A DNA stretch of 64,000 bases from a bacterium (lineage in GTDB: Bacteria > Patescibacteriota > Patescibacteriia > JAGPKW01), in contig JAJXYN010000009.1 in NCBI GenBank assembly GCA_021780535.1, forward strand, positions 224,360 through 288,359, in the 5' to 3' direction. Positions 33,447 to 47,890 of the stretch are shown here, piece after piece; the stretch's first letter is position 1; every line of letters begins with the position of its first letter. The position numbers and the translations under genes were made by a program. The notes beneath the pieces are model-generated. The model was not told the DNA's origin, made no database searches, and saw only the letters and a list, made by a program, of their open reading frames with translations.

Positions 33447-34868
33447 ATGGACAATGAAGAATTATTAGACAAAATACTTCAAGATAAAATTGAGAATGAA
33501 ATAATAGAATTCAAGGAAGCTAAAAATAATTTTGATTTAGATGATTTAGGAAAATATTTTTCTGCATTAAGCAATGAAGCTAATTTAAATAACGCAAACA
33601 ATGCGTATCTTGTATTTGGTATTGATGATAATAAAAAAATAGTTGGGACAACTTGGAAAGATAGTGAAAAGGAAATAAATAAATTAAAAATGTTTATTTC
33701 TGAACATACTGCTAATTCAATTACATTTGAAAATATAATAGTAATAACAAAAGATAAAAAGAGGGTTTTGATATTTGAAATATCTCCAACACCAATAGGA
33801 ATACCAATGTCTTGGAAGGGGCATTTTTATGGCAGAAATGGAGAAAGTTTAGTCCCATTAAATATTGATAAAATAGAAAAAATTAGAAAACAAACAAAAA
33901 TATCATTTGAAAAAGAGATATCAACTGATAATCTAACGGAGGATGAAGTTCTTGGATTACTTGATTATTCAAAATATTTTAGTTTATTAAGCTTCCCCAC
34001 ACCTAAAACAAGAGAAGGCATAACAAGAAAATTGATTGATGATGGTTTTGTTGTTAGAGATGGAAATAGTTTTAAGATAAAAAATTTAGGAGCTATCCTT
34101 TTAGCTAATAATTTAAATGATTTTGAAAAAGTAAAAAGAAAAAAAATAAGAATTATATTATATAAAGGAAAAAATAAAATTGAAACAATAAGAGAAATAG
34201 AGATACAAAAAGGTTATGCTGTTGGTTTTACTGATATAGTTAACAATATAAACACTATATTACCGTCTAATGAAGAGATTTCAAAATTTTTAAGAACAGA
34301 AAAAAAGATGTATCCAGAAATAGCCATAAGAGAATTACTAGCAAACTCATTAGTGCATCAGGATTTCACAGTAACAGGAACAGCACCTATGATTGAAATA
34401 TTTGATGATAGAATAGAGATAACAAACCCAGGAAGTCCCTTAATAGATATAAATAGATTTATAGACCACCATCCACAATCTAGAAATGAAGGCGTTGCCA
34501 ATATAATGAGAATGATAAATATTTGTGAAGAAAGAGGTAGTGGAATAGATAAAGTAATAGCCAGTATAGAGGTATATCAATTACCACCATTAAAAATAGA
34601 AAAATATGAAAATTTTACAAAAGTGATACTCTATTCTGATAAAAGATTATCTTATATGGACAAGAATGATAAAATAAGAGCTTGCTATCAACACTGTTGT
34701 TTAAAGTATGTTGGTAACGAAATAATGACAAATGCCACATTAAGAGAGAGACTTGGAATAAAAAGTGAAAACTATTCTACCGTTTCTAGAATAATAAGAG
34801 ATACTATAGAACAGGGCTTAATAAAAGAATATAAAAATAAGGAATATATACCATTTTGGGCTTCTTGA
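33447..34868 (+). CDS. AlbA_2 (Schlafen-like divergent AAA) plus HATPase_c_4 domain protein, a putative ATP-dependent DNA-binding/defence-associated protein
   Basis: IEFKEAKNNFD…ALSNEANLN…AYLVFGIDDNKKIVG N-terminal AlbA_2 pattern. C-terminal AIRELLANSLVHQDF…IEITNPG HATPase_c_4 pattern plus a wHTH. Confidence 0.7.
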   Translation: MDNEELLDKILQDKIENEIIEFKEAKNNFDLDDLGKYFSALSNEANLNNANNAYLVFGIDDNKKIVGTTWKDSEKEINKLKMFISEHTANSITFENIIVITKDKKRVLIFEISPTPIGIPMSWKGHFYGRNGESLVPLNIDKIEKIRKQTKISFEKEISTDNLTEDEVLGLLDYSKYFSLLSFPTPKTREGITRKLIDDGFVVRDGNSFKIKNLGAILLANNLNDFEKVKRKKIRIILYKGKNKIETIREIEIQKGYAVGFTDIVNNINTILPSNEEISKFLRTEKKMYPEIAIRELLANSLVHQDFTVTGTAPMIEIFDDRIEITNPGSPLIDINRFIDHHPQSRNEGVANIMRMINICEERGSGIDKVIASIEVYQLPPLKIEKYENFTKVILYSDKRLSYMDKNDKIRACYQHCCLKYVGNEIMTNATLRERLGIKSENYSTVSRIIRDTIEQGLIKEYKNKEYIPFWAS

Positions 34869-34904
34869 TGTGATTTTATATATAACAATATAAAACAATA
34901 TAAA

Positions 34905-34932
34905 AAAAATATGCTAATTTTAGCATATTTTT
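34905..34932. terminator. Bidirectional terminator (perfect 12-bp hairpin aaaaatatgcta/tagcatattttt)
   Basis: Lies between the convergent AlbA_2 gene and the defence operon. Confidence 0.5.
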
Positions 34933-34984
34933 TATGTGACTGGAATGTGATTTTAATAAATTATTATCTAAAATAAGGTATTTT

Positions 34985-35446
34985 TTATTTAAACTCATTA
35001 ACAATAAATTTATGTATATTTTTATCTTTTATTTTTCTTAAATATTTTAATAGCAAATCATAAGCTTTGTGTTCTTTATTCTTAGACCAAACAATATTAT
35101 TATCCTCTCTTATTATATCTGAACTTAAAAAGTTTTTTAAAACATCTAAATCTGAGAAATAAGGCACTATGAGTTTATCAAATACTGTATTGTAGTGAGC
35201 ACCCCAACTACACTCTATAAAATGTTTTAGTAACTTTTCTGAATTGTAATTTACTATACATTTTAGAGCTAATTTATCTGCATAGATACAATCAGAATAT
35301 AACACTAAAAAATCATCATCTTTCCCTAATAGTTTTATTATACTACTAAAACTAAAACCACAATTTAGACAACCATTTTCAGTGTCTTGCAAAGTAATTT
35401 TTGTATCACATTTTGGACAAATTAAATATTTTTCAAAAATACCCAT
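34985..35446 (-). CDS. Zn-ribbon protein (last gene of the R-M-linked operon)
   Basis: N-terminal CPKC…(17)…CLNC zinc ribbon. 153 aa. 10-nt gap to the upstream gene. Confidence 0.45.
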   Translation of the reverse strand: MGIFEKYLICPKCDTKITLQDTENGCLNCGFSFSSIIKLLGKDDDFLVLYSDCIYADKLALKCIVNYNSEKLLKHFIECSWGAHYNTVFDKLIVPYFSDLDVLKNFLSSDIIREDNNIVWSKNKEHKAYDLLLKYLRKIKDKNIHKFIVNEFK

Positions 35447-35456
35447 TTTTATTAAA

Positions 35457-35741
35457 TTATTTTATTGGACTAAATATATCTTTTTGTTTTTTATATTGTT
35501 GTTCTTGGATAGCTTCTAAACTTTTTTCCATTATCTTCTTTCTATAAGCTAGTATCTCTTCTCTATAAAAAAGAAAGTAATTTAGTTTAGCATTTTTAGA
35601 ATAATCTGCTAATTGTTCTAAGTCATTAGCTAAAGCCTCTATTCTTTTTACTGTTTTTTCTGCTTTTTTTATTATTATATCCTGCTTCTTTAGAAATACT
35701 TTTTCATTTTTTTCTATTTGGTCAAATCTTCTTGGTGGCAT
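35457..35741 (-). CDS. Small coiled-coil protein (94 aa) in the R-M-linked operon
   Basis: Heptad-rich, Lys/Glu-rich. 18 nt after the nuclease-like gene. Confidence 0.4.
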   Translation of the reverse strand: MPPRRFDQIEKNEKVFLKKQDIIIKKAEKTVKRIEALANDLEQLADYSKNAKLNYFLFYREEILAYRKKIMEKSLEAIQEQQYKKQKDIFSPIK

Positions 35742-35759
35742 ATTCTTTTATTATTATAA

Positions 35760-37229
35760 TTATATATTATTTAAATAATTCAATATCTTAACCATAGCAA
35801 GCGTATCAAGATGACAATAAGTAGTTAAATCCTTATGTATTTTATCTCTATCTTCCTGAGTAAATCTTTCTTCTAATATCATCTCTCTCCAACTATTTGA
35901 AGCCGTCATTCCTTCTTTAATATTAAGCTCTTTGTATGATAATTCTGGAACAAGTATTGGGAGAACTTTTTTAATAGACCAACTTCCGTGAAATCTTCCG
36001 TCTACATAATAAGCATCGTGGAATATGTCCATTAAATCAAATACTCTTTCATTTACATTTAACAAGAAATTATTGTAATTAGGATATCTTTCAGCCATTT
36101 CTCTATTACAACCCATTTCAAAAGATTTATTCCATACAATTACGCTCCCATTATCATCTTTTATTATTTCTTTTAATGTTTTAACTAAATCTATAGAAGG
36201 GTCAGTATTTTCTTTTCCTAGAAATTCAAAATGTTCTAATTCTGAATATGGGGTTTGTTGTATGTGTAATGAATATTGAAATACAACTCTTTGGTATGGC
36301 TTATATCCATTAAACATAGGAATAGCTGGGTTTAAAGTTTCGTAATCAAGAAAATATAAAGGATATTTTAATTTAGATAATTCTTCCTTTATTTTATCTT
36401 TCTCTATATGAGGTTTTCCTGTATTTAAACTCTCTACATAGTATTTCTTTAAATCATTTGTAAGATAACTATCAGGTATATCTTTAGCGTGTATTATTCC
36501 TTCATCAATTAAATTCATTAACTTATTCTCTCTGAATTGAAAGTTATAAATACTATCATCAGGAATATCTTTTTGGCAGTAATCTATAAAATTACAAGTT
36601 TCTGGATTTTTACATTGAGAAAGTATTTCAACATTAAGTTCTTCTTTAAATGTAAGAACTTCTTTTAATTTACTTATTTCATTTTTAACTTCTTCTAGTT
36701 TTTCTATAACTTCTATAGTCTTGTTTTCAATACTAAAATATTGATTTATATCTATTTCACCATTTCTAATATATTGATTATTAACGTGAACTACATAAGT
36801 TTCACCAATACTTAATCCTTGTTTTTCTAATACAATCTTTTGAAAAGCTAAATCTTTAATATGTTGTTTATCTACTTCTGTAGTAGCTTTAATTTCATAT
36901 ATATCAAACTTATTTGTTTCGTTATTAAATTTTAATATATCAGAACGACAATATAACTCATCAACAATAAAAGTGGCTTGATGAATGATTTTAGCACCTT
37001 CTTTAATATATTTTTCTGTTTCTAAGCTACCTTGAAGTTTATCCTCTGTAATTATCTTATCTTTACTATCAAATAACTTATATGCGAGAGTTTCAACTTG
37101 ATATCCTTCTTCTATTTTAAGTTGTTCATTTTTATCTGGAGGTAATACTAAATCTGGTCTATTGATAAATAGCCAAGCAAATTTAGGACATTGTATAAAA
37201 CGTAGATAGTCGGATTTTGTTATTAACAT
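35760..37229 (-). CDS. Nuclease-like protein with an N-terminal Cas4-like PD-(D/E)xK module and a C-terminal FLDYET-bearing domain (recalled as DUF2779)
   Basis: MLITKSDYLRFIQCPKFAWL N-terminus. D…D…EIK motif (VDELYCRSD…IYEIKATT). Cys cluster CKNPETCNFIDYC. C-terminal YFLDYET…VVFQYSLH…VWNKSFE (DEDD/RNase-H-like). The start abuts the res stop (37229/37230). Confidence 0.5.
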   Translation of the reverse strand: MLITKSDYLRFIQCPKFAWLFINRPDLVLPPDKNEQLKIEEGYQVETLAYKLFDSKDKIITEDKLQGSLETEKYIKEGAKIIHQATFIVDELYCRSDILKFNNETNKFDIYEIKATTEVDKQHIKDLAFQKIVLEKQGLSIGETYVVHVNNQYIRNGEIDINQYFSIENKTIEVIEKLEEVKNEISKLKEVLTFKEELNVEILSQCKNPETCNFIDYCQKDIPDDSIYNFQFRENKLMNLIDEGIIHAKDIPDSYLTNDLKKYYVESLNTGKPHIEKDKIKEELSKLKYPLYFLDYETLNPAIPMFNGYKPYQRVVFQYSLHIQQTPYSELEHFEFLGKENTDPSIDLVKTLKEIIKDDNGSVIVWNKSFEMGCNREMAERYPNYNNFLLNVNERVFDLMDIFHDAYYVDGRFHGSWSIKKVLPILVPELSYKELNIKEGMTASNSWREMILEERFTQEDRDKIHKDLTTYCHLDTLAMVKILNYLNNI

Positions 37230-39473
37230 TTAGTTTAAACTTATAAGATTGCCGTTACTAACTTCATATACATCATTTGTGTTTAATTTAAATAATCTAC
37301 CGTTTTCTTTTGGTATAACTATACCACCAAATAATTTATTATTTCCAGCTTCTTTTATATATTCCTGTAGGGCTTCTGCTTTTAACTTTGTTTCTAATTG
37401 TTCTGCTGTTATTCCTTCTTTTGTATCAAAAATACCAATTCTTTCATCTTTATATTTTACTATAAAATCTGGATAAAAACCTTTTAGCTCATTATTCATT
37501 TTATAAGTTATTCCAAAAAATATTTTATTTCCTTGTCCATTTTTAAACCACCACTCAATCTCACTACTTTGTTCCAAATAATTATTTATAAAGTCATTTT
37601 CAGTTTTCCATTTATTATCTAAAAAACAAGGACTTAATATACATTTATCAAAATTGTTTTCATTAAACGTATCTGGGTATGATAAATATTCCGGTACGTT
37701 AAATATTGTTTCAATAGGTTCTTTTATTTTTATTTCTCTTGATTTTATATATTCATCTTTTGATTTATTTATTAAATCTATAAAAAAACTCTGATTTGTT
37801 AATACGATACTTTGTATATCTAATCTACTTTTATTTTGTTCTTCAAATCCAAGATATTTTTCAAAAAGTTCATATATTGATTGCTCTAATATCCCAGTAG
37901 ACCTAGATTGTTGAAATGGAGCACATAAAGAGCTTAAAAATGAGTAAAATAATACTTTTACATATGAATATGATTGTTTAAATTCTTCTTTTTTATCACC
38001 ACTCAAAAAGATTTTGTTATCTATTTCATCTATATTTGAAAATCCTAAATTTGTTATAATTTTTGTATTTAGTTCTTTATTAAAATCAATAAATTTATTT
38101 GCTATGTTTATGTTTTCTTTACTTTTTTCTATATCATAAAATCCATTTATTTTATTAAAAAACTCTTTATGTAAAAATGGTCTAAATTCTAACTTTAAAT
38201 CATTGTAATCAATTCTAGGTAAATAGTATGATTTTAGATTTATGTTTGAGTATAAATTTTTTCTTTTTGCTTCTTTTCTTTTTATGTATTCTTGGGCAAC
38301 ACCTTCAGCAATAGAAATATTTTCTATATTTGTATATAAATAAGCTTTATTTAAATCTTCATTTTGGTAATGCTTTAGTTCTGGCATTCTCATTATTCTA
38401 CCAACTGTTTGTATTTCAAAAATTTGACTTCCTGTTTCTCTGAATTTAATTAAAATTTGAGCCCTTGGACAATCCCAACCAGTCGCTATTGCTTGTTTAA
38501 AGATTAAAGCATCTATAATACTGCTATTTCTATCTATTTCTTCTAAATTCACTTTATCTTCTGAAAGCCACAAAGATAATCTTTTATTTTCTTCTGTTAT
38601 ATTAAATTTATTTTTTAAAATATCTTTAATTTCATCAATTTTTTGTTTGTCTAAATCACTTAAAGTACTCTTTTCATTTGGTAATTGAATTAAAATAAGA
38701 GGATTTATATTAGAATTATTTTTTAAATATAAATCTTTTAAATATTTTTGTTTTTTAATAGCTTCCTCTATTATTGCTTCATCTATAATTAAATTTCTAT
38801 CATTTTTTAACTCTGGATTTATAATAACTTCTTTTTTTATCATTTGTTCATCAATAACATCCTGTAATTCTACGTCAACATTCGGGTTTTCTTCTGGTGT
38901 TGCGGAAATATCTATTTGTAGTTTTGGTTGAATAATTTCATCTATTATTTTTTTACTATCTATCGTCATATGTAAATGACTTTCGTCTATAATAAGAATA
39001 ATTGTTCTACCTTCATCTTTTGCGTTTGTTATAAAATTTTTTAAATTTCTGTTATATTCATTATCCGCCATAAAAATATTAGTATAATCACCAGATTGTA
39101 TACCTTTTTCAGGATTATCCTGTTTTGCTTTATTTCTTATTTTTTCCCAATTTATAAAAAGTATCTCATTTTGTTTTAATATATTATCTTGGACATCTTC
39201 TAAATTTGAAAACTTAAAAACACCATTATTTATTATAGATTGAAGTCTATTTTTACTTTGATTATGTAATTCGTGTATAGATAACCAAACAAAGCTAAAA
39301 TTACCTTGTATTTCTTTAGTAAATCTTTCTAGATATTTTGCTATCATAACTGTTTTTCCAGAGCCGGTAGGAGCTTTAAATACTATTTTTCTGTTATCAT
39401 TTTTATTTAAAAATTTCACAGTCTCTTCAAAAAGTTCGTTTATAGCTTTTATTTGATAATTTTTTAATTCCAT
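37230..39473 (-). CDS. res: Type III restriction enzyme, Res subunit
   Basis: 747 aa. SF2 helicase motifs (KAPTGSGKT, LIIDESHL, TVGRIMRMP) and a C-terminal PD…(D/E)xK (YPDFIV…IFDTKEG). Directly downstream of mod. Confidence 0.8.
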   Translation of the reverse strand: MELKNYQIKAINELFEETVKFLNKNDNRKIVFKAPTGSGKTVMIAKYLERFTKEIQGNFSFVWLSIHELHNQSKNRLQSIINNGVFKFSNLEDVQDNILKQNEILFINWEKIRNKAKQDNPEKGIQSGDYTNIFMADNEYNRNLKNFITNAKDEGRTIILIIDESHLHMTIDSKKIIDEIIQPKLQIDISATPEENPNVDVELQDVIDEQMIKKEVIINPELKNDRNLIIDEAIIEEAIKKQKYLKDLYLKNNSNINPLILIQLPNEKSTLSDLDKQKIDEIKDILKNKFNITEENKRLSLWLSEDKVNLEEIDRNSSIIDALIFKQAIATGWDCPRAQILIKFRETGSQIFEIQTVGRIMRMPELKHYQNEDLNKAYLYTNIENISIAEGVAQEYIKRKEAKRKNLYSNINLKSYYLPRIDYNDLKLEFRPFLHKEFFNKINGFYDIEKSKENINIANKFIDFNKELNTKIITNLGFSNIDEIDNKIFLSGDKKEEFKQSYSYVKVLFYSFLSSLCAPFQQSRSTGILEQSIYELFEKYLGFEEQNKSRLDIQSIVLTNQSFFIDLINKSKDEYIKSREIKIKEPIETIFNVPEYLSYPDTFNENNFDKCILSPCFLDNKWKTENDFINNYLEQSSEIEWWFKNGQGNKIFFGITYKMNNELKGFYPDFIVKYKDERIGIFDTKEGITAEQLETKLKAEALQEYIKEAGNNKLFGGIVIPKENGRLFKLNTNDVYEVSNGNLISLN

Positions 39474-39476
39474 ATT

Positions 39477-41195
39477 TTAAAAATTAAATATCTTCTTATA
39501 TGTTTCTAGTATTGGGTCTGGTATATCTTCCAATTCCAAATTCAAATTTAAATGTTCCAATTCTTGTTTAAAATTTATTTTTGATGGAGAAAATATATAC
39601 ATTTTAATCTTCTTATGTTCTAATTTTAATAAGTCTTTTTTAAATTCATCAAACATAAATAAATCAAATAAAATAGCTAGATAGATATCTTTATTTTGAT
39701 AAATTTTTATCATTTTTCCATTTTTTACAACACTAAAACAATCCTCTTTTAAACAAAGAATTTCTGTTGACCTATTAACCATTTTTTTTCTTAAGTCATC
39801 TGTTATTTTATCTAAATTTATAAAATCTGTTTTTAAATATTTTAGATTTCCTTTGAGGGCTTTTATTGTTTTGCCCTTTTTGTTTTTATAGCCCTCTATT
39901 ACTTTTTTTATTCTTAAATAACATATATCTTCGCATATTTTATGTTCAGATTTTTCATCGCCATTATTTGTACATAGTATAAATTTTCTATTCCCATTAT
40001 CTTCATTATTTAATTCCAAAACAGCTTGTCCCGTTGTTCCTGAACCAGCAAAAAAATCTAAAACAGTTATGTTATTATTTTTATTTGTAATTGAAATTAA
40101 ATGTTTAATAAGTTCTTTTGGTTTAGAAAAAGGAAAATCAATATCTAGTTTAATAAGTTCTTTTGAGCCCATAGAGTTTGGCATATCAATAAAAGTAAGT
40201 GGCTTCATACCAGCTTCTTGTCTTTCGTGTAAATAAATTTTTGTGTAAACATTCCATATAGACCTTTTACCACTCTCATCTATTAAAGGAGATGTTTTTG
40301 TTTTTAGAAAAACAACTCTATTTTCTTCTAATTTTGATTTAAATGTAGATGGTATCCATCTAAACATTTTATTTTCAAAAGGAGTTGTAACCTTTGTTCC
40401 GTCTGGGCACTCTATAAAATATCTCTGATTTGGACGTTTATCTAGACTTGGCATATATAAAGATACTAAATTATATTTTCCTCTATCATCTGAATATTTA
40501 AATAATTTTATATATTCAGAACTTTCTTGAGCTTCAGCATCGTTAAATTCTTCTAATAAATCTATATTTTTTGCATAACAAAGAATGTAATCTGTTGAGG
40601 GAGAAAAAAATCTACCCTTATTACTTGTTTCTTTTTGTTTTCTAACTACATTTGCTAAAAAATTTTGTTCTCCAAATATTTCATCGCATAATATCTTTAA
40701 TTGATACAATTCATCATCTCCAATTGAAATAAATATAACCCCATTATTATTTAGAAGTTCCTTAGCTAATTTCAATCTTTTATTCATAAAAGATAACCAC
40801 TTAGAATGTCTAAATCTATCTTCTTTATCAACAAATACATCATTATAAATGAAATCTTTATTCCCAGTATTGTATGGTGGGTCAATATATATAACATCTA
40901 TTTTTTCTTTATGTGTATAGCTTAACACAGACAAAGAATGATAATTATCTCCTTCTATAAGTATGTTCATACTATCATTTATATCAGATATTACATCATT
41001 ATAATTATCTTTTTTCTTCTCACTTAAAACAGGAAGGGATATTTCAGATTGTTTTTCAAAAATCTCTTTTTTATCTTCCCATATTAAACCATACCTCTTA
41101 TTTTTTTTAACAGTTTTTATTTGTTTTTTTAACTTTTCTATCTCATTTAATAATTCTTGTTCTTTTTGATTGTTTTGCATAAAAAAATCGGACAC
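39477..41195 (-). CDS. mod: Type III R-M DNA methyltransferase, Mod subunit (N6-adenine, beta class)
   Basis: DPPY motif IV (IYIDPPYNTG) before the C-terminal motif I (FFAGSGTTGQA). GTG start at 41195, with an alternative ATG at 41180. Confidence 0.8.
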   Translation of the reverse strand: MSDFFMQNNQKEQELLNEIEKLKKQIKTVKKNKRYGLIWEDKKEIFEKQSEISLPVLSEKKKDNYNDVISDINDSMNILIEGDNYHSLSVLSYTHKEKIDVIYIDPPYNTGNKDFIYNDVFVDKEDRFRHSKWLSFMNKRLKLAKELLNNNGVIFISIGDDELYQLKILCDEIFGEQNFLANVVRKQKETSNKGRFFSPSTDYILCYAKNIDLLEEFNDAEAQESSEYIKLFKYSDDRGKYNLVSLYMPSLDKRPNQRYFIECPDGTKVTTPFENKMFRWIPSTFKSKLEENRVVFLKTKTSPLIDESGKRSIWNVYTKIYLHERQEAGMKPLTFIDMPNSMGSKELIKLDIDFPFSKPKELIKHLISITNKNNNITVLDFFAGSGTTGQAVLELNNEDNGNRKFILCTNNGDEKSEHKICEDICYLRIKKVIEGYKNKKGKTIKALKGNLKYLKTDFINLDKITDDLRKKMVNRSTEILCLKEDCFSVVKNGKMIKIYQNKDIYLAILFDLFMFDEFKKDLLKLEHKKIKMYIFSPSKINFKQELEHLNLNLELEDIPDPILETYKKIFNF

Positions 41196-41544: not shown

Positions 41545-42642
41545 ATGGAAGAATTATTTAAAAATTTGAAACCTTACTCAAAAATAACCTTTTACAATGA
41601 TACAACGCCATTAGAATACGACTGTTTTGATTTAATTTTTGACTTATATCACGATTTTTATTCTTTAAATAGAGACACTACTTATACACTTAAAAAAAGT
41701 TTTGTATTTGATGATGATGAATTTAATAAAATTAAAATATTTTTAGAAGAATTAAAAAATGCTAATATTATTGATAGTTTTTCTGAAGAAAAAACAGCTC
41801 TTAAACCAAAAGATGATGATGATATAATAATGTGGCTGAATAGTAAATTCGATATAAAAATATTATTTACACCAAAAATAGAAGGATTTGATTTACTTGG
41901 CTATATTGCAGAAAAAAATAAATTAAATATCTACGGGGATAAAATACAAAAACAAAAGATATCTAAGATGATTTTATCTAAATTCGAAGAATACCAAAAT
42001 AATGAGTTATTTTTTGATTTGTATTATAGTGATGAATGGAATAATTCTGAAGATATAGAAAAATATTTAGATGGTTCATATTCTGATTACGAAAAGATAA
42101 ACGCATTTAAAACACTAAGAAATCTAGAGAATGATAAAATAATACAAATAAAAGAAACTTCCGTATTAAGAGAATATGGAAATAAAATAATTATAGCAAA
42201 TGTAAAAATAAAAATATTGGAAACAGATAAGCTTTATAATGCGAGCTATGATAAATCTAAAAAAGAAATTACTACTGATAAAGAAATAAACACTGAACAA
42301 TTTCTATATACCTACAATAAACAAAAGAAAAATGGCTCGCTTGTTTTAAAAAGCTTTGGGGAATACGTTAATTTTACAGGAAGAAGGAGCGCAATATTTC
42401 TATTTTTTTACAAAAAAAGAAATGAAAATAAATTTTTTGATTACAAAGAACTAAATTTATTTCTAAAAGAAAATGATTTTGAAGAAATAAAATCCGATGG
42501 CTTAAACAAAGACATTAAAACAGTTAATAAAATTATAAATGTTTTAACAAACAATGAATTAAAAGAAATAATACTTATAGATAAAGAGAAAAATGAAAAA
42601 GACGCTGATATAAATGTTTATAAATTTAATAACCTAAAATAG
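41545..42642 (+). CDS. Hypothetical protein (365 aa), first gene of the element
   Basis: ORF only. Asp/Glu/Lys-rich with no recognised motif. Confidence 0.45.
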   Translation: MEELFKNLKPYSKITFYNDTTPLEYDCFDLIFDLYHDFYSLNRDTTYTLKKSFVFDDDEFNKIKIFLEELKNANIIDSFSEEKTALKPKDDDDIIMWLNSKFDIKILFTPKIEGFDLLGYIAEKNKLNIYGDKIQKQKISKMILSKFEEYQNNELFFDLYYSDEWNNSEDIEKYLDGSYSDYEKINAFKTLRNLENDKIIQIKETSVLREYGNKIIIANVKIKILETDKLYNASYDKSKKEITTDKEINTEQFLYTYNKQKKNGSLVLKSFGEYVNFTGRRSAIFLFFYKKRNENKFFDYKELNLFLKENDFEEIKSDGLNKDIKTVNKIINVLTNNELKEIILIDKEKNEKDADINVYKFNNLK

Positions 42643-42860
42643 TCGGATTTATACTCGGATTTTTTAAAAAATAGCTAATATATGGCTATTTTTTATTTGA
42701 ATATTTTTATTTTTCATAAGTATATCGTATTTTATGTCGTTGTTAATAAATCACCAAAACCGAGAATAGTAGCATATTTTAAGTTATGAAATAATACAAA
42801 ATGAAAATATTTTCTAAACAACAAACTGCAGTTTGAATATTTAATAATAAAAATAAAATT

Positions 42861-43112
42861 ATGTTCAAATATTTAAAAGAAAACGATTTTTTTACAACTC
42901 CAGACATTTGTCTTGGGGCTACAATATTGTATTTTGGATACAAAATAGAATGTGTTGAAAATAAAAACAACAAAACACACTTCTCTTTTAGAAGAGATAA
43001 AAAACTAGATGATTTAATACAAGACCATTTAAATCATTTATTAAAGGTTGAGCCTATGATGTTTTTTGAAAAAACAAAAGAACTTAAAAAAAGAATACAT
43101 TTTGGTATATGA
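42861..43112 (+). CDS. DUF5659-like small protein
   Basis: FFTTPDICLGATILYFGYKIECVEN…THFSF…LKVEPMMFFEKTKELKKRIH matches the remembered DUF5659 pattern (F-T-D-L-L-A…G…F-F…E-P…L-K). Confidence 0.45.
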   Translation: MFKYLKENDFFTTPDICLGATILYFGYKIECVENKNNKTHFSFRRDKKLDDLIQDHLNHLLKVEPMMFFEKTKELKKRIHFGI

Positions 43113-43264
43113 ATTTAAAAGAAAAAGACATTAAAGAATTCCAAAGGCTTTATAAAGAAGAATTTGGAGAAGAATTGGATTTTGAAGAAGCAAAAAAACA
43201 ATGTGACGACTTCCTTGAATTTATGGTTTTATTCTTCAAACCAAAAAATCTTATAAAATATTAA
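43109..43264 (+). CDS. Small acidic ORF (51 aa), ATGA-overlapped with the upstream gene
   Basis: MNLKEKDIKEFQRLYKEEFGEELDFEEAKKQCDDFLEFMVLFFKPKNLIKY. Translationally coupled position. Below the ORF-track cutoff. Confidence 0.3.
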   Translation: MNLKEKDIKEFQRLYKEEFGEELDFEEAKKQCDDFLEFMVLFFKPKNLIKY

Positions 43265-43280
43265 AATTAACATTAAAAAT

Positions 43281-44567
43281 ATGGAAAATATAGAGAGCGT
43301 TTTAAGTTCTGTTGATGAAGTTTTTGAAAAAGAGCAAAAAGAGCAAATCAATAAATTTAAAGAAAAGTTTAAAGAATTAAATGCTGAAAATCTAAAAAGT
43401 ACTTTAGGTCTAACAATTAAAAAGGATAATGAAAATAAGATAATAACTTTCTTATGCCAATTATCATCTTACACAGAAGATAACCAATTTAATATTATAT
43501 TTAACGCCCCCTCTTCTAGTGGTAAATCATATATACCAACAGAGATAGCAAAACTTTTCCCAAGCGAAGATGTAATGGAAGTTGCTTATTGTTCTCCAAC
43601 AGCTTTTTTTCACGATAGTGGTGTATACAATGAAGAAAGAAAAAGTATAGATATGGATTTATCTAAAAAAATACTTATATTTTTAGACCAGCCACACGCT
43701 CAATTATTAGAAAGATTAAGACCTTTGTTGTCTCACGATAAAAAAGAAATACTTGTTAAAATATCTGATAAAACTGGCAAGGGCGGTTTAAAAACAAGGA
43801 ATATTTATATAAAGGGCTTTCCATCTGTAATATTTTGTTCTGCTAATACAAATATAGACGAACAAGAAAGTACTAGGTCTATATTATTATCACCTGAAAT
43901 AAATCAAGAAAAATTAAGAGAAAGTATCTTGGAAAAAATAAAATATGAAACAAATAAGGATACTTATAAAGATTTTATAAATCAAAATCAAGAAAGAATT
44001 TTATTAAAGGAAAGAATTTTAGAAATTAAAAAACTAAATATAAAGGATATAAAAATAGCAGATGAAGAACTTATTATAGGATTATTTTTTAAGGGTAAAA
44101 AAATATTAAAACCAAGACACCAAAGAGATATAGCTAGATTTATATCAATAATAAAATCATTTGCTTTATTAAATTGTTTCTATAGAGAGAAAAGTGGTGA
44201 TGACATAATAGCTAGTTATGATGATATAGAAAGTGCTATGAACATATGGCAAGTTGTTTCTGAAAGCCAGGAATATAATATCTCTCCTTATTTGTATGGT
44301 TTTTATAAAGAGATAATACTCCCATTGTTTTTAAGTAAAAACAAAAGAGGTATTTTAAGAAAAGAAGTTTTGCAAAAATATTTTGAAGTTTATGAAAAGA
44401 ATATACCAGATTGGCAATTAAGACAAAGTATTCTGCCAGCTCTTGAAAACTCTGGTTTAATATATCAAGAACAAGACGAAACAAATAAAAGAAAAATTCT
44501 TATTTACTGCTCCGAAAGAGAAAACAAAGAAATAATTGATTTAAGCAAAAACGAAATAACAATATAG
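43281..44567 (+). CDS. P-loop NTPase (element replication/primase-helicase-like)
   Basis: Walker A FNAPSSSGKSY and Walker B-like ILIFLDQ. 428 aa. Sits in the mobile element. Confidence 0.45.
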   Translation: MENIESVLSSVDEVFEKEQKEQINKFKEKFKELNAENLKSTLGLTIKKDNENKIITFLCQLSSYTEDNQFNIIFNAPSSSGKSYIPTEIAKLFPSEDVMEVAYCSPTAFFHDSGVYNEERKSIDMDLSKKILIFLDQPHAQLLERLRPLLSHDKKEILVKISDKTGKGGLKTRNIYIKGFPSVIFCSANTNIDEQESTRSILLSPEINQEKLRESILEKIKYETNKDTYKDFINQNQERILLKERILEIKKLNIKDIKIADEELIIGLFFKGKKILKPRHQRDIARFISIIKSFALLNCFYREKSGDDIIASYDDIESAMNIWQVVSESQEYNISPYLYGFYKEIILPLFLSKNKRGILRKEVLQKYFEVYEKNIPDWQLRQSILPALENSGLIYQEQDETNKRKILIYCSERENKEIIDLSKNEITI

Positions 44568-44604
44568 TGAGTTGCACTATATGTAATTTATAAATAATAA
44601 AAAT

Positions 44605-45255
44605 ATGAGTAAAAAACTTAAAATATTAAAAAAAGATAGAGACAGAGTTGTAAAAAGAATATCAGAAGATTATACAAACGAAGATATTGTAAATATATCA
44701 ATTTTAAATTCTACCACTTGGTTAAAAAGAGATAATCTTATAGAAGAGTTAAAAACGGATTTATCAGAATTACAATTATTAAAAAAAGAAAATAAAGACA
44801 CTTCAGAATTTGAAGAAAAAATAAAAGATAAGATGGAAAAGATATCTCTTGTTAATAGTAATAAATCCAGTCACGCTTTTATAGAGGGCGTGTCTGTGAG
44901 GTATAGAGGTTATGCTATAAAAATGAAAGAGGATTTAATAAAAGAATATGATGCAAAAACGTTGATAGAATTTTCTCTAATAGAACAAATAGTAAGTTCT
45001 AATATAAAGTTTATTGCCTGTTCAAAAAAAATGATAGAAGCTTCTGAATTTGATTACTTTGGAAATGATAGAAATAATTTTTTAAAATTTTTATCTATAG
45101 AAAAAGATAGAGCTTTTAGACAGTTTATTTCTGGAACACAAGCATTGCAACAATTAAAACAACCTTCATTGAATATTAAAATAAACACTAAAAATGCTTT
45201 TATAGCTCAAAATCAGCAATTAAACAGTAATTCAGAAAACAATGATACCAAATAA
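44605..45255 (+). CDS. Hypothetical protein (216 aa)
   Basis: ORF. Overlaps the next gene by 14 nt. Confidence 0.4.
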   Translation: MSKKLKILKKDRDRVVKRISEDYTNEDIVNISILNSTTWLKRDNLIEELKTDLSELQLLKKENKDTSEFEEKIKDKMEKISLVNSNKSSHAFIEGVSVRYRGYAIKMKEDLIKEYDAKTLIEFSLIEQIVSSNIKFIACSKKMIEASEFDYFGNDRNNFLKFLSIEKDRAFRQFISGTQALQQLKQPSLNIKINTKNAFIAQNQQLNSNSENNDTK

Positions 45256-45565
45256 TTTCGACAAGTTTTTAGTAAGTCAATGTCAAAAGCTTGATATAAA
45301 AAATCTAGTTAAGTCAATACAGGAAGAGCTTTTAAGAGATTTAATATTAAAATCTGAAATAAATTTTGAGGATGTAAATATAGAGTTTTCTTATTCCAAG
45401 ACTGGCTTTGATGGTTCTAGGTTATGGTTAAAATGCCCTATATGTAGTCATAATATAAGAATAATTTATAAAACACCTAATAATTTTATAGGTTGTAGAA
45501 AATGTTTAAACTTAGACTATGAAAGTCATATATATAAAAAAATAAAAAATAAAATATGGGATTAA
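45242..45565 (+). CDS. Small Zn-finger protein (107 aa)
   Basis: CPIC…(18)…CRKC motif. Confidence 0.4.
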   Translation: MIPNNFDKFLVSQCQKLDIKNLVKSIQEELLRDLILKSEINFEDVNIEFSYSKTGFDGSRLWLKCPICSHNIRIIYKTPNNFIGCRKCLNLDYESHIYKKIKNKIWD

Positions 45566-45864
45566 GTATAGATGGTAAAAATATAGAACAAAATATACAT
45601 TTTAACTGGAATTGTTTAGATAATTTTATAAAGTGGTGTAGCACGAAAAACATACCATTATTATTTCCTGATTGGGACGGAACAAATGCCAATAAAATAA
45701 TTGATTTAAGAAATAAGAAATCACAAAGAAAATTAAAGAAAAAATTGTATGTGGTAGAAAAATTTATAACAAATGAAATAGATTATAATTTGTTTATTCT
45801 TATTAAGTATTATATATTTTTAAAAAATCAATTAGATAATAATGGATTTATAGAATATTCTTAA
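45556..45864 (+). CDS. Hypothetical protein (102 aa)
   Basis: ORF. Overlaps the previous gene by 10 nt. Confidence 0.35.
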   Translation: MGLSIDGKNIEQNIHFNWNCLDNFIKWCSTKNIPLLFPDWDGTNANKIIDLRNKKSQRKLKKKLYVVEKFITNEIDYNLFILIKYYIFLKNQLDNNGFIEYS

Positions 45865-45874
45865 CTTAAAATAT

Positions 45875-46015
45875 ATGATTTCAGAAAAAAACTTACAAAA
45901 ATTTATGGATTTATACGAAAAAGAATACGGGGTTAAATTAACAAGACAGGAGGCGTTCAATCTTTTCTCAAGGTTTGTAAACATAGTAAGAATTGTATAT
46001 GAAACAAAGGATTAA
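45875..46015 (+). CDS. Small ORF (46 aa) upstream of the recombinase (excisionase/RDF-like candidate)
   Basis: MISEKNLQKFMDLYEKEYGVKLTRQEAFNLFSRFVNIVRIVYETKD. Position suggests a directionality factor. Speculative. Confidence 0.25.
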   Translation: MISEKNLQKFMDLYEKEYGVKLTRQEAFNLFSRFVNIVRIVYETKD

Positions 46016-46115
46016 CAAATCAATAAAAGTATTATAAAATGATTATATTGACCCAACTTAATATTTTCTATGAAAGAGACTTTTTATAATGTCTATCTTT
46101 GTTATCGTCTATATA

Positions 46116-46170
46116 GGACAGTTCTGCCGATAATTCTTTCATAGGAATGTTGGGTCAATCAGGACTGTCC
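46116..46170. other. Candidate recombination (att-like) site: ggacagt…(40 nt)…gactgtcc inverted repeat
   Basis: Imperfect inverted-repeat arms GGACAGT / ACTGTCC, interleaved with a second pair ttgacccaac (46048-46057) / gttgggtcaa (46149-46158). About 35 nt upstream of the serine recombinase start. Confidence 0.35.
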
Positions 46171-46204
46171 TTTTAGATTTAATAAAATTAACATTAAAAA
46201 AAAT

Positions 46205-47827
46205 ATGATAAAAGAAAATAGAAATTTAAAATATGCTATATATCTTCGTAAATCAACTGATAGTGAAGATAGACAAGTTCAGTCAATAGAAGACCAAGAA
46301 AAAGAAATAAATATTTTAGTAGAAAGAGAAGGAATTAAAAAAGAAAATATAATAGAAATCTTCAAAGAAAGTAAATCTGCCAAAAAACCTGGGAGAGAAG
46401 AATTCAATAGAATGATGTGTTTAATAAAAGAAGGCAAAATTGATAGTGTTATGTGTTGGAAATTAAATCGTTTAGCAAGAAATCCTATCGATGGTGGCGA
46501 AATTCAATGGTTACTACAACAAAATATAATTAAATCAATATTAACAAATGAAAGAGAATACCTTCCAACTGACAATGTTCTTATGATGGCAGTTGAATTG
46601 GGAATGGCAAATCAATTTGTATTAGACTTAAGTAAAGATGTTAAAAGAGGAATGAGGGGTAAAGTAGAAAAAGGCTGGAGACCAATGAGAGCTCCCATTG
46701 GATATATAAACGACAAAGCTGGTAATAAAGGAGAGAAAAAGATTTTTAGAGATGAAACTAGATTTGATATAGTGAGAAAGTGTTGGGAGCTTTTATTTAC
46801 AAGAAAATATACAGTACCAGAAATTACAGAAATAGCTAATGAAACATATGGTTTAAGAGACTATAAAGGTGAGAAAATAAATAATAGCACCTTTTATAAG
46901 ATATTTAGAAATACTTTTTATTATGGAGAGTTTAGTTATTGTGGCGAAGTGTATCAAGGAAAACACGAACCAATGATAACAAAAACAGAATTTGAATACG
47001 CTCAAGATATTTTAAGTGGTAGTAAACATAATAAAAGACCAAAAACAAAAAATCTCCCATACAATGGAATTATTACTTGTGGCGAATGTGGCTGTTATAT
47101 TACATCAGAAGAGAAAATAAAATATGTTAAGTCAGAAAATAAAGTCAAAAATTATGTATATAATAAATGTTGTAGTAATAATAGATGTTTTAAATGTTCT
47201 CAGAAGCCAATAAAATATGAAGAATTGTCTGAACAAGTTAAAAAATACCTAGAAACAATAAAGATAACTGATAAATTTTTTAATTTTGCCCTAATGGTTT
47301 TCAAAGAAAGAAATATGGTAGAAGAAGAAAATAGAAATAGTATCATAAGAAACTTACAATCAAATCATACGGAGGTTATAAAAAAGATAGATAACTTAAT
47401 AAATTTATTTGTATCTCAAAATAATCAAAATAGAGAGCTTTTAAGTGAAGATGAATATATTTCTCAAAAATCATTTCTTGCTAAAGAAAAAATAAGAATA
47501 GAACAACAAATAAAGGATATTATGGAAGAAACATCAACTCAAGATAAAAGATTTGATGACGAAATAAACTTTGTTCATACAGAAATAGAAATGTTTGATA
47601 ATGGGAGTTATGAAAAAAGAACTCAAATATTAAGAAAAATGGGAGAAAGCTTTATTTTAAAGGATGGAATGCTTGATATACAATTAAAAAAAGTATTTCT
47701 AACATTCACTACTTACCAGTCAGAGTATAAAAAGAGAGAAATAGAACTAAGCAATATAAGAAATTTCAGCGAATTTAAAACAAAAAAAGAAGCTGATGCT
47801 TCTTTTCGTTCTATCTGGAGCGGGTAA
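46205..47827 (+). CDS. Large serine recombinase (integrase)
   Basis: N-terminal resolvase domain (AIYLRKSTDSEDRQ…LNRLARN), recombinase domain and Cys-rich zinc ribbon (CGECGCYIT…C…C). 540 aa. Confidence 0.85.
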   Translation: MIKENRNLKYAIYLRKSTDSEDRQVQSIEDQEKEINILVEREGIKKENIIEIFKESKSAKKPGREEFNRMMCLIKEGKIDSVMCWKLNRLARNPIDGGEIQWLLQQNIIKSILTNEREYLPTDNVLMMAVELGMANQFVLDLSKDVKRGMRGKVEKGWRPMRAPIGYINDKAGNKGEKKIFRDETRFDIVRKCWELLFTRKYTVPEITEIANETYGLRDYKGEKINNSTFYKIFRNTFYYGEFSYCGEVYQGKHEPMITKTEFEYAQDILSGSKHNKRPKTKNLPYNGIITCGECGCYITSEEKIKYVKSENKVKNYVYNKCCSNNRCFKCSQKPIKYEELSEQVKKYLETIKITDKFFNFALMVFKERNMVEEENRNSIIRNLQSNHTEVIKKIDNLINLFVSQNNQNRELLSEDEYISQKSFLAKEKIRIEQQIKDIMEETSTQDKRFDDEINFVHTEIEMFDNGSYEKRTQILRKMGESFILKDGMLDIQLKKVFLTFTTYQSEYKKREIELSNIRNFSEFKTKKEADASFRSIWSG

Positions 47828-47890
47828 GGAGAATCGGACTCCCCTCTTCAGCTTGGAAGGCTGACATAATAGCCACTATACGATACCCGC
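47816..47890 (-). tRNA. tRNA-Gly (anticodon TCC), CCA encoded, with an atypical T-loop (C at position 55)
   Basis: Reverse complement GCGGGTATCGTATAGTGGCTATTATGTCAGCCTTCCAAGCTGAAGAGGGGAGTCCGATTCTCCTTACCCGCTCCA. 7-bp acceptor stem and anticodon stem TCAGC/GCTGA. The 3' 12 nt overlap the recombinase stop. Confidence 0.65.

What the first reader, a model, noticed from the sequence alone, without database searches (positions are those of the whole stretch)
34985..41195. Type III R-M operon extended by a dual-nuclease (Cas4-like plus FLDYET-bearing C-terminal domain, recalled as DUF2779) gene and two small genes: candidate composite defence system
Five co-directional genes with 0-18 nt spacers: mod, res, the nuclease-like gene, a coiled-coil gene and a Zn-ribbon gene. 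The mod to res gap is 3 nt, and res to the nuclease-like gene is directly abutting. A hairpin terminator appears only after the last gene. The third gene has a PD-(D/E)xK/Cas4-like N-terminus with a Cys cluster and a C-terminal FLDYET…QYSLH module that resembles a 3'-5' exonuclease. Such a nuclease coupled into a Type III operon is not part of the canonical Mod/Res system. It could be an accessory effector (for example a backup degradase or anti-anti-restriction function), or an unnamed defence system riding on the R-M system.
Basis: partly seen in the sequence, partly recalled or inferred. Interest (0 to 1): 0.75.

Follow-up and report, generated by a model that had tools for sequence, protein, structure and literature searches.

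The report
Restriction operon with add-on double nuclease
A mobile Type III restriction-modification operon carries an extra gene for a two-headed DNA exonuclease (Cas4-like plus DEDD-type) that turns up beside several kinds of restriction enzyme in other bacteria, so it is probably a swappable helper nuclease and not part of a fixed five-gene system.

Summary
Five co-directional minus-strand genes (mod, res, a 489-aa Cas4-like + DUF2779 protein, a 94-aa and a 153-aa protein) are separated by 3, 0, 18 and 10 nt. The only hairpin terminator follows the last gene.

- Both nuclease sites of the 489-aa protein are intact, and its predicted fold matches Cas4 and DEDD 3'-5' exonucleases.
- The link to Type III R-M recurs: Mod+Res lies within 1.7 kb of the homologous gene in 6 of 80 species-representative genomes, and again in metagenome and IMG/VR loci. 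Two of those genomes and the closest homologue's locus share the window's gene order.
- The nuclease is not specific to Type III. It also follows GmrSD, Type IIG, MTES_1575, OLD and AAA_13 genes, often on serine-recombinase elements, and most family members have no restriction neighbour.
- The three closest relatives of this R-M that I sampled lack it.
- The two small genes are not conserved partners.
- Res has its own intact nuclease motif.

The Cas4+DEDD architecture was described in 2014 and 2026. Cas4-family nucleases beside Type III R-M were reported in 2017 as UvrD-Cas4 fusions.

Best reading: a modular DNA-end-processing exonuclease co-expressed with a mobile restriction system integrated at tRNA-Gly. 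This is a new variant of a known theme, of moderate interest.

The parts
39477..41195 (-). mod: Type III (beta-class N6-adenine) DNA methyltransferase. The likely true start is the ATG at 41180 (567 aa).
   Evidence: Pfam N6_N4_Mtase 8e-38. PADLOC MTase_III 2.5e-89. DPPY and FAGSGTT motifs are visible in the translation. The public gene call gives 567 aa. No simple-sequence repeat is present.
37230..39473 (-). res: Type III restriction subunit (747 aa), an SF2 helicase-like motor with its own C-terminal PD-DxK nuclease.
   Evidence: Pfam ResIII 4.7e-19. PADLOC REase_III 7e-18. Conserved in at least 95% of 41 homologues: Walker A P35-T41, D163-E164-S165, Q355-R362, and P668-D669...D683-x-K685.
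36555..37229 (-). Nuclease gene, N-terminal Cas4-like PD-(D/E)xK domain (about residues 1-225) with a four-Cys cluster.
35760..36377 (-). Nuclease gene, C-terminal DUF2779 domain (about residues 285-489), an RNase H-fold DEDDy-type 3'-5' exonuclease.
35457..35741 (-). 94-aa K/E-rich helical protein. It is lineage-specific and its function is unknown.
   Evidence: No Pfam, NCBIfam, PADLOC or PHROG hit. There is no homologue in any fetched locus outside its own genome. The ORF fills the gap between genes 3 and 5 with 18-nt and 10-nt spacers.
34985..35446 (-). 153-aa protein with an N-terminal CxxC...CxxC Zn-ribbon and a conserved helical domain (motif HFIECxWGAxYN). It belongs to a small family not tied to R-M or DUF2779.
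34900..34933 (-). Intrinsic-terminator-like hairpin (13-bp AU-rich stem plus U run) between the convergent 153-aa gene and the Schlafen-like gene.
   Evidence: Sequence. Fold dG -14.3 kcal/mol, z -2.57.
41545..47890 (+). Divergently transcribed backbone of the integrative element that carries the operon: small genes of unknown function, a large serine recombinase (46205-47827), and the tRNA-Gly(tcc) gene (47816-47890, minus strand) whose 3' end the recombinase ORF overlaps.
   Evidence: Resolvase and Recombinase domains. tRNA-Gly. Relatives of this Mod/Res pair also sit beside large serine recombinases. Serine recombinases lie within 10 kb of many DUF2779 genes.

Best explanation
The region is a complete Type III restriction-modification system, with its own Mod and its own helicase-nuclease Res. 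It is carried on a serine-recombinase integrative element inserted at tRNA-Gly.

An ancillary dual exonuclease gene has been appended to the operon and is probably translationally coupled to res. The protein combines a Cas4-type [Fe-S] PD-(D/E)xK nuclease (5'-3' polarity in characterised Cas4 proteins) with a DEDDy 3'-5' exonuclease.

I infer the following mechanism. After Res makes its single double-strand cut in unmethylated invading DNA, this protein attacks the new ends on both strands. A repairable break then becomes irreversible degradation, or is otherwise end-processed. RecBCD/AddAB does this job after restriction in model bacteria.

The same nuclease is a swappable module that different mobile restriction cassettes (Type III, GmrSD, Type IIG and others) have picked up repeatedly. 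The 94-aa and 153-aa genes are lineage-specific passengers or regulators that are co-transcribed here. They are not conserved system components.

Shown: gene content, intact active sites, fold, operon layout, and recurrent juxtaposition with restriction genes. Inferred: enzymatic polarity, action on restriction-generated ends, and any contribution to defence.
For: - Tight operon: gaps of 3, 0, 18 and 10 nt and a single terminal hairpin.
- Both catalytic centres are invariant across 36 homologues. The model is confident (pLDDT 93.7), and each half matches Cas4/MGME1/Dna2 or DEDD exonucleases.
- Type III Mod+Res lies within 1.7 kb of the homologous gene in 6 of 80 species-representative loci (L018, L020, L026, L034, L035, L058). 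L018 and L026 have the same order and strand as the window, with 2-nt and 16-nt gaps. The closest homologue (about 60% identity, L003) lies downstream of a different Type III system.
- An independent sample repeats the pattern: L094, L097, L117/118, L139, L151 and L152.
- The R-M systems involved belong to different subfamilies (Res of 747, 883, 974 and 1012 aa). The R-M-linked nucleases are scattered through the family, and their nearest relatives at 67-94% identity are not R-M-linked. The juxtaposition therefore arose repeatedly.
- Proximity test for Type III systems: 6 of 7 in the genome loci lie within 2 kb, against 20% expected for uniform placement in +/-10 kb (P = 4e-4). All samples pooled give 8 of 16 (P = 0.007).
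- The same gene directly follows other DNA-cutting defence genes: GmrSD with gaps of -2 to 31 nt in at least 9 loci, MTES_1575, OLD and AAA_13. In plasmids of cultured bacteria it follows a PD-(D/E)XK nuclease with a WYL gene next, or sits among NERD, AAA and dGTPase genes.
- The upstream neighbour is co-directional in 66 of 78 loci and within 60 nt in 48 of 78. This is the typical position of a distal accessory gene.
- Published precedent: UvrD-Cas4 fusions occur most commonly in Type III Mod/Res loci together with Schlafen-like ATPases and were interpreted as ancillary (PMC5704561). A Schlafen AlbA_2/HATPase_c_4 gene abuts this operon.
Against: - There is no experimental evidence for any member of PF11074 (PMC13621843).
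- About two thirds of the sampled family members have no detected restriction-type neighbour. Some follow housekeeping genes such as sigma-70, signal peptidase or MgtE.
- The three closest relatives of this Mod/Res pair that I examined lack the nuclease. Res keeps its own nuclease, so R-M function does not require the extra gene.
- Orientations vary between loci: same strand downstream, upstream, convergent and divergent. This fits island co-residence as well as it fits functional coupling.
- A distant family member is quasi-essential in a minimal Mycoplasma, which points to a housekeeping role for at least part of the family.
- My enrichment estimate lacks a measured genome-wide background. 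Several partner families (GmrSD, OLD, AAA_13, MTES_1575) were identified because they were adjacent, which is an ascertainment bias.
Confidence: 0.45

Rival explanations
1. Co-travelling but functionally independent. The Cas4-DUF2779 protein is a self-sufficient repair or recombination nuclease (or a stand-alone defence nuclease). It lies next to restriction genes only because both are typical cargo of the same integrative elements and defence islands.
For: - Most family members have no restriction neighbour, and some are in housekeeping contexts.
- Near-identical nucleases (93-94% identity: L034, L035, L037, L071) keep their position while the neighbouring defence genes differ (Type III in L034 and L035, Type IIG in L071). 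This looks like an insertion hot spot beside a resident gene.
- Serine recombinases and ParB-methyltransferases are frequent neighbours.
- A distant Mycoplasma homologue is quasi-essential.
- Solo-Cas4 genes were reported to evolve mainly vertically.
Against: - Operonic embedding directly downstream of unrelated DNA-cutting enzymes, with gaps of 0-31 nt, recurs in many lineages.
- The window gene abuts the res stop codon.
- The window protein and its closest homologue both follow Type III systems that are not closely related to each other.
Confidence: 0.3
2. Element-serving function. The nuclease works for the mobile element itself, for example in recombination or replication of the excised element, exclusion of competing elements, or counter-defence. 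It does not work for the host's restriction pathway.
For: - The operon sits on a serine-recombinase element at tRNA-Gly.
- A recurrent cassette of GmrSD, Cas4-DUF2779, ParB-methyltransferase, methyltransferase and serine recombinase appears in genomes, metagenomes and IMG/VR contigs (L016, L109, L092).
- ParB-methyltransferases are typical of phages and plasmids (my own knowledge).
- Full-length homologues occur on plasmids.
Against: - Only 16 loci were found in 2.9 million viral contigs.
- There are no PHROG matches.
- Many members lie on long chromosomal contigs with no recombinase within 10 kb.
- Relatives of this element carry Mod/Res without the nuclease.
Confidence: 0.12
3. One reading: mod, res, the nuclease and the two small genes form one obligate five-component composite defence system.
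For: The five genes are co-directional, tightly spaced and share one terminator. The array is identical in a first assembly of the same organism, and a second, truncated contig carries it as far as the start of the 94-aa gene.
Against: - The 94-aa protein has no detectable homologue elsewhere in the fetched loci. The 153-aa family occurs without R-M or DUF2779 neighbours.
- Other Mod-Res-nuclease arrays have different downstream genes, or none (L018, L026, L003).
- PADLOC has no system model that matches genes 3-5 as a set.
Confidence: 0.06

Closest known systems
PF11074/DUF2779 family of Cas4 + DEDD(h/y) fusion proteins (RNase H-like clade F.17 in Majorek et al. 2014, PMC3985635; MMSYN1_0389 of JCVI-syn3.0, PMC13621843)
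   Same: Same two-domain architecture, same conserved D/E/K and DEDD-Y catalytic residues, and the same status as experimentally uncharacterised.
   Different: - The window protein is the compact 489-aa form that keeps all four Cys. The Mycoplasma protein has only two.
- The window protein falls far below the NCBIfam UU173_fam cut-off (64.9 against 225 bits).
- The published descriptions do not report linkage to Type III, GmrSD or Type IIG restriction genes or to serine-recombinase elements.
UvrD-Cas4-like fusions (pfam12705) in Type III Mod/Res loci, and solo-Cas4 next to R-M in DPANN archaea (Hudaiberdiev et al. 2017, PMC5704561)
   Same: A Cas4-family nuclease acts as a non-core, ancillary gene in Type III R-M neighbourhoods. 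Schlafen-like ATPase genes and WYL regulators lie nearby. There is a patchy association with several defence contexts.
   Different: The partner domain here is a DEDD 3'-5' exonuclease, not an SF1 helicase. The Cas4 subfamily is different, and the restriction partners are broader (GmrSD, Type IIG, MTES_1575).
Canonical Type III R-M systems (EcoP1I/EcoP15I type)
   Same: The order is mod then res. Mod is a beta-class N6-adenine methyltransferase. Res has an SF2 motor and a C-terminal PD-(D/E)xK nuclease.
   Different: Res is short (747 aa). Three extra genes are co-transcribed downstream. The system rides on a serine-recombinase integrative element.
CRISPR adaptation nucleases: Cas4 (5' end/PAM-side trimming) and the Cas2-DEDDh or DnaQ 3'-5' trimmers
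   Different: There is no cas1 or cas2 in or flanking the operon and no CRISPR-like repeat array anywhere in the window. The two activities are fused in one polypeptide.
RecBCD/AddAB degradation of restricted DNA (functional analogue only)
   Same: The proposed role is exonucleolytic destruction or processing of DNA ends made by restriction enzymes. The Cas4 domain is homologous to the RecB/AddB nuclease domains.
   Different: There is no helicase domain, no Chi-recognition apparatus and only a single polypeptide. The activity is untested.

Membership tests
Type III restriction-modification system | Mod subunit: beta-class N6-adenine DNA methyltransferase (N6_N4_Mtase with DPPY and FxGxG motifs) | tested here: met
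   Pfam PF01555 8e-38 and PADLOC MTase_III 2.5e-89. IDPPY and FAGSGTT motifs are in the translation.
Type III restriction-modification system | Res subunit: SF2 helicase-like ATPase motifs plus a C-terminal PD-(D/E)xK endonuclease motif | tested here: met
   ResIII 4.7e-19 and REase_III 7e-18. Walker A, DES(H), QTVGRxxR and PD...DxK are conserved in at least 95% of 41 homologues.
Type III restriction-modification system | mod immediately upstream of res in one operon | tested here: met
   The gap is 3 nt.
Type III restriction-modification system | ATP-dependent cleavage that requires two inversely oriented unmethylated sites | not testable with these tools
   This is a biochemical property.
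PF11074 / DUF2779 | Match to the Pfam model above the gathering score | tested here: met
   141.5 bits against a cut-off of 23.3, covering the full model 1-126.
PF11074 / DUF2779 | DEDD(h/y) acidic residues and an RNase H-like exonuclease fold | tested here: met
Cas4 family (PD-(D/E)xK with Fe-S cluster) | D...ExK catalytic motif and four cluster-binding cysteines (one N-terminal, three C-terminal) | tested here: met
Cas4 family (CRISPR-associated sense) | Encoded with cas1/cas2 or beside a CRISPR array | tested here: not met
   There are no cas domains in the flanking genes and no CRISPR-like direct-repeat array in the 64-kb window. It is a solo-Cas4-type gene.
NCBIfam UU173 family (Mollicutes DUF2779 proteins such as MMSYN1_0389) | Score above the curated cut-off | tested here: not met
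   64.9 bits against a cut-off of 225, and only the C-terminal 229 residues align.
UvrD-Cas4 ancillary nuclease of Type III loci (pfam12705 branch) | SF1 UvrD-like helicase fused to the Cas4-like nuclease | tested here: not met
   No helicase domain is found in the 489-aa protein. The C-terminal half is a DEDD exonuclease.
Any named multi-gene defence system in PADLOC-DB v2.0.0 | Genes 3-5 match component models of a described system | tested here: not met
   Only the generic Cas4 model hits gene 3, and nothing hits genes 4 and 5.

The most novel reading that the evidence does not exclude
Cas4-DUF2779 proteins are a general, portable 'post-restriction degradase'. This dual-polarity exonuclease module would be recruited repeatedly by mobile restriction cassettes (Type III, GmrSD, Type IIG, MTES_1575, OLD) to finish off cleaved invader DNA. 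It would effectively stand in for RecBCD/AddAB, especially in small-genome bacteria such as Patescibacteria, and would spread on serine-recombinase elements.
Probability: 0.3. Interest if true: 0.65.

Novelty: new variant of a known kind. Interest (0 to 1): 0.45.

Why it matters
PF11074 is a large, widespread and wholly uncharacterised nuclease family. One search returned more than 4,000 homologues, and the family is abundant in Patescibacteria.

If the family potentiates restriction by destroying cleaved DNA ends, that would assign it a function. It would also explain how restriction cassettes stay effective in hosts with minimal repair machinery. It would add a reusable accessory-effector class to R-M biology, alongside the UvrD-Cas4 fusions noted in 2017.

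The window offers a compact construct, mod-res with or without one gene, that makes the idea directly testable. If the adjacency instead reflects only co-residence on mobile islands, the finding is an ordinary R-M island with passengers.

Tried and rejected
- CRISPR-adaptation role. Rejected: there are no cas genes in or flanking the operon and no repeat array in the window.
- The nuclease replaces a missing Res nuclease. Rejected: Res keeps a conserved PD...DxK motif.
- Conserved partners downstream of DUF2779 genes. Clustering 550 neighbours from 78 of the 80 loci found no family in more than 8 loci and none fixed at position +1.
- Prophage origin of the element. There are no PHROG matches, and the family is rare in IMG/VR.
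- att direct repeats for the element. None were found. This is expected for serine recombinases, so the left boundary is undefined.
- Phase-variable repeats in mod. None found.
- Sequence-level link of the 489-aa family to any solved structure. A profile search of the PDB found nothing even at E 10. Only fold comparison worked.
- Host identification. Exact-cluster look-ups returned no organism names. The record is an unnamed MAG (GCA_027355865.1).
- Finding more members of the window/L003 subclade. The metagenome scan found nothing closer than 46% identity.
Full report
WHAT IS THERE.

The window carries five co-directional minus-strand ORFs at the stated coordinates. They are mod (39477-41195), res (37230-39473), a 489-aa gene (35760-37229), a 94-aa gene (35457-35741) and a 153-aa gene (34985-35446). 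The spacers are 3, 0, 18 and 10 nt. The res stop codon TAA is followed directly by the ATG of the 489-aa gene.

A 13-bp AU-rich hairpin followed by a U run lies about 50 nt beyond the last stop codon (dG -14.3 kcal/mol, z -2.6). The consensus scan found no minus-strand terminator-like site within the operon.

The same array is present in one public assembly of the same uncultured organism. A second assembly has a short contig that carries it as far as the start of the 94-aa gene. The public gene call starts mod at the ATG at 41180.

THE R-M PAIR.

Mod is a Type III-type N6_N4 methyltransferase (Pfam 8e-38, PADLOC MTase_III 2.5e-89). Res has ResIII/REase_III matches. In an alignment of 41 homologues, Res conserves the Walker A, DExH-like and motif VI elements. 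It also conserves a C-terminal P668-D669...D683-x-K685 nuclease motif. The R-M system is therefore complete on its own.

The closest Res relatives are 45-48% identical and come mostly from Patescibacteria-like metagenomes. I examined three of them. In the two where both flanks are visible, Mod/Res sits beside a large serine recombinase. None of the three has a DUF2779 gene downstream.

In the window, the divergent upstream block (41545-47827) ends in a 540-aa serine recombinase. Its ORF overlaps the 3' end of tRNA-Gly(tcc). The operon is therefore cargo of an integrative element.

THE 489-AA PROTEIN.

Pfam DUF2779 matches residues 292-418 (2.2e-41). The PADLOC Cas4 model matches residues 2-220 (1.1e-7).

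Across 36 homologues of 43-60% identity, two sets of residues are invariant:
- The Cas4 signature: C14, D97, E112-x-K114, Q130, C206, C212 and C218.
- The DEDD-Y signature: D295-x-E297, E371, D398 and Y471-x3-D475.

This architecture is not new. Majorek et al. 2014 placed DUF2779 in the 3'-5' exonuclease clade and noted its fusion to DUF83/Cas4. A 2026 paper on JCVI-syn3.0 described the same fusion in MMSYN1_0389 and stressed that the family is uncharacterised.

IS THE LINK TO TYPE III R-M REAL?

The closest homologue (about 60% identity, metagenome loci L003 and L004) also lies downstream of a Type III system. That system is a different one: its Mod is 32% identical, its Res is 1012 aa with an RE_endonuc domain, and SNF2 and DUF4391 genes precede it.

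In 80 species-representative genome loci (1.32 Mb in total), Mod+Res pairs lie within 1.7 kb of the nuclease gene in six:
- L018 (Staskawiczbacteria) has Mod-Res-nuclease on one strand with a 2-nt Res-nuclease gap.
- L026 (Lentisphaerae) has the same order with a 16-nt gap, followed by an OLD-family nuclease.
- L020 has the nuclease upstream of Mod-Res.
- L034 and L035 are convergent.
- L058 is divergent.

A second, independent sample of 49 metagenome loci and 16 IMG/VR loci gave further cases: L094, L097, L117/118, L139, L151 and L152.

The R-M-linked nucleases are scattered through the family. Apart from the window/L003 pair, their nearest relatives (67-94% identity) are not R-M-linked. The juxtaposition therefore arose repeatedly.

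Within the +/-10 kb loci, Type III systems cluster next to the nuclease gene. In the genome loci, 6 of 7 lie within 2 kb, against 20% expected for uniform placement (P = 4e-4). Pooling all samples gives 8 of 16 (P = 0.007).

From my own knowledge of how common Type III systems are, one system per roughly 160 kb of flanking sequence is well over tenfold above genomic background. I could not measure that background here.

BUT THE PARTNER IS NOT FIXED.

Clustering the neighbours showed no universal partner. The recurrent neighbours are:
- GmrSD Type IV enzymes: 9 of 80 loci, with 7 directly upstream and co-directional, and 6 more in the replicate sample.
- Eco57I/MmeI-type Type IIG enzymes: 7 loci.
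- MTES_1575 helicase-nucleases: 4 loci.
- OLD: 3 loci.
- AAA_13: 2 loci.
- Single cases of SMODS and PIN-TPR proteins.
- ParB-methyltransferases: 16 loci.
- Large serine recombinases: 10 loci.

Twenty-eight of the 80 loci hold at least one restriction- or defence-type gene. The remainder include housekeeping neighbours such as sigma-70, signal peptidase and MgtE.

The upstream neighbour is co-directional in 66 of 78 loci and within 60 nt in 48. This is the position of a distal accessory gene.

Plasmids of cultured Aliarcobacter and Selenomonas show the same habit. One has a PD-(D/E)XK nuclease, then DUF2779, then a WYL gene. Others place it among NERD, AAA, DEAD-helicase and dGTPase genes.

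Only 16 loci were found in 2.9 million viral contigs.

THE TWO SMALL GENES.

The 94-aa K/E-rich protein has no family match and no homologue in any fetched locus.

The 153-aa protein belongs to a real but sparse family of about 50 distant homologues. Members have a Zn-ribbon and a conserved domain with the motif HFIECxWGAxYN. Its model is confident (pLDDT 91) but has no informative structural match. Its homologues lie in unrelated mobile-element or defence-island contexts, without DUF2779 or Type III genes.

Neither gene is a conserved component of a system.

INTERPRETATION.

The best-supported reading has three parts:
- A self-sufficient, mobile Type III R-M system has acquired a dual-polarity exonuclease as a co-expressed ancillary gene.
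- The exonuclease is a promiscuous module, recruited by several kinds of DNA-cutting defence enzymes.
- Its most economical role is to process or destroy the DNA ends those enzymes create (inference; confidence 0.45).

Three rivals remain:
- Mere co-residence of an independent repair or defence nuclease with restriction cargo (0.30).
- A function that serves the mobile element (0.12).

There is a published precedent. Hudaiberdiev et al. 2017 found UvrD-Cas4 fusions most commonly in Type III Mod/Res loci together with Schlafen-like ATPases, and called their role ancillary. They also noted solo-Cas4 enrichment in CPR and DPANN genomes, with R-M adjacency in DPANN. A Schlafen AlbA_2/HATPase_c_4 gene abuts this operon.

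I found no paper in the searchable library that links PF11074 to restriction systems. PADLOC v2 has no system model that contains it.

VERDICT.

- Observation: confirmed.
- Interpretation: partly supported.
- Novelty: a new variant of a known theme, namely Cas4-family ancillary nucleases in restriction loci.
- Interest: moderate (0.45). The value lies mainly in a clean, testable hypothesis for a large uncharacterised nuclease family.

Noticed in passing
window 46205-47890: A 540-aa large serine recombinase ORF overlaps by 12 nt the 3' end of tRNA-Gly(tcc) (47816-47890, minus strand). The block 41545-47827, together with the R-M operon, looks like an integrative element inserted at the tRNA. 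No att repeats were found, and the left boundary is undefined.
   Followed up: partly
window 33447-34868 (+): A Schlafen AlbA_2 + HATPase_c_4 protein (473 aa) lies convergent with the operon and shares its terminator region. The same kind of gene was reported beside Type III/UvrD-Cas4 loci (PMC5704561).
   Followed up: partly
L016 2197-11314; L109; L092: A recurrent cassette of GmrSD, Cas4-DUF2779, ParB-N6_N4 methyltransferase, a second methyltransferase and a large serine recombinase appears in a genome MAG, a metagenome contig and an IMG/VR contig. It looks like a conserved mobile element of Patescibacteria-like organisms.
   Followed up: partly
window 34985-35446 (-); alignment A3: The 153-aa protein defines a small unannotated family (Zn-ribbon plus a helical domain with the motif HFIECxWGAxYN). 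It has a confident AF2 model but no Pfam match and no informative fold match.
   Followed up: yes
window 41180-41195: The mod start is ambiguous. The mechanical ORF begins at GTG 41195 (572 aa), while the public annotation uses ATG 41180 (567 aa).
   Followed up: partly
L188 (Aliarcobacter faecis plasmid pAFAEC) 1-13992; L189 5911-9340: In plasmids of cultured bacteria the DUF2779 gene sits in long co-directional clusters. One runs DUF87 ATPase, DUF6602, AAA protein, hypothetical, DUF2779, 1307-aa DEAD/DEAH helicase, dGTPase. Another runs PD-(D/E)XK nuclease, DUF2779, WYL protein. These may be uncharacterised defence clusters.
   Followed up: no
L026 10227-12038: An OLD-family (AAA_15 + TOPRIM) nuclease gene overlaps the 3' end of the DUF2779 gene directly after a Mod-Res-DUF2779 array. 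This gives a four-gene nuclease-rich operon in a Lentisphaerae MAG.
   Followed up: no
window 35760-39473 against the rest of the window: Res and the dual nuclease both have their closest relatives (48-60% identity at most) in Patescibacteria-type metagenomes. The surrounding genome encodes chemotaxis (MCP) and GGDEF proteins, which are unlike a CPR organism. This suggests the cassette was transferred horizontally. The base composition (about 25% GC) does not distinguish it from the host.
   Followed up: partly
window 43281-44567 (+): A 428-aa element gene with a Walker-A-like NAPSSSGKS motif has no family assignment. Its only matches are a weak hit to a PHROG of unknown function and a weak MarR-like C-terminal hit.
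   Followed up: no
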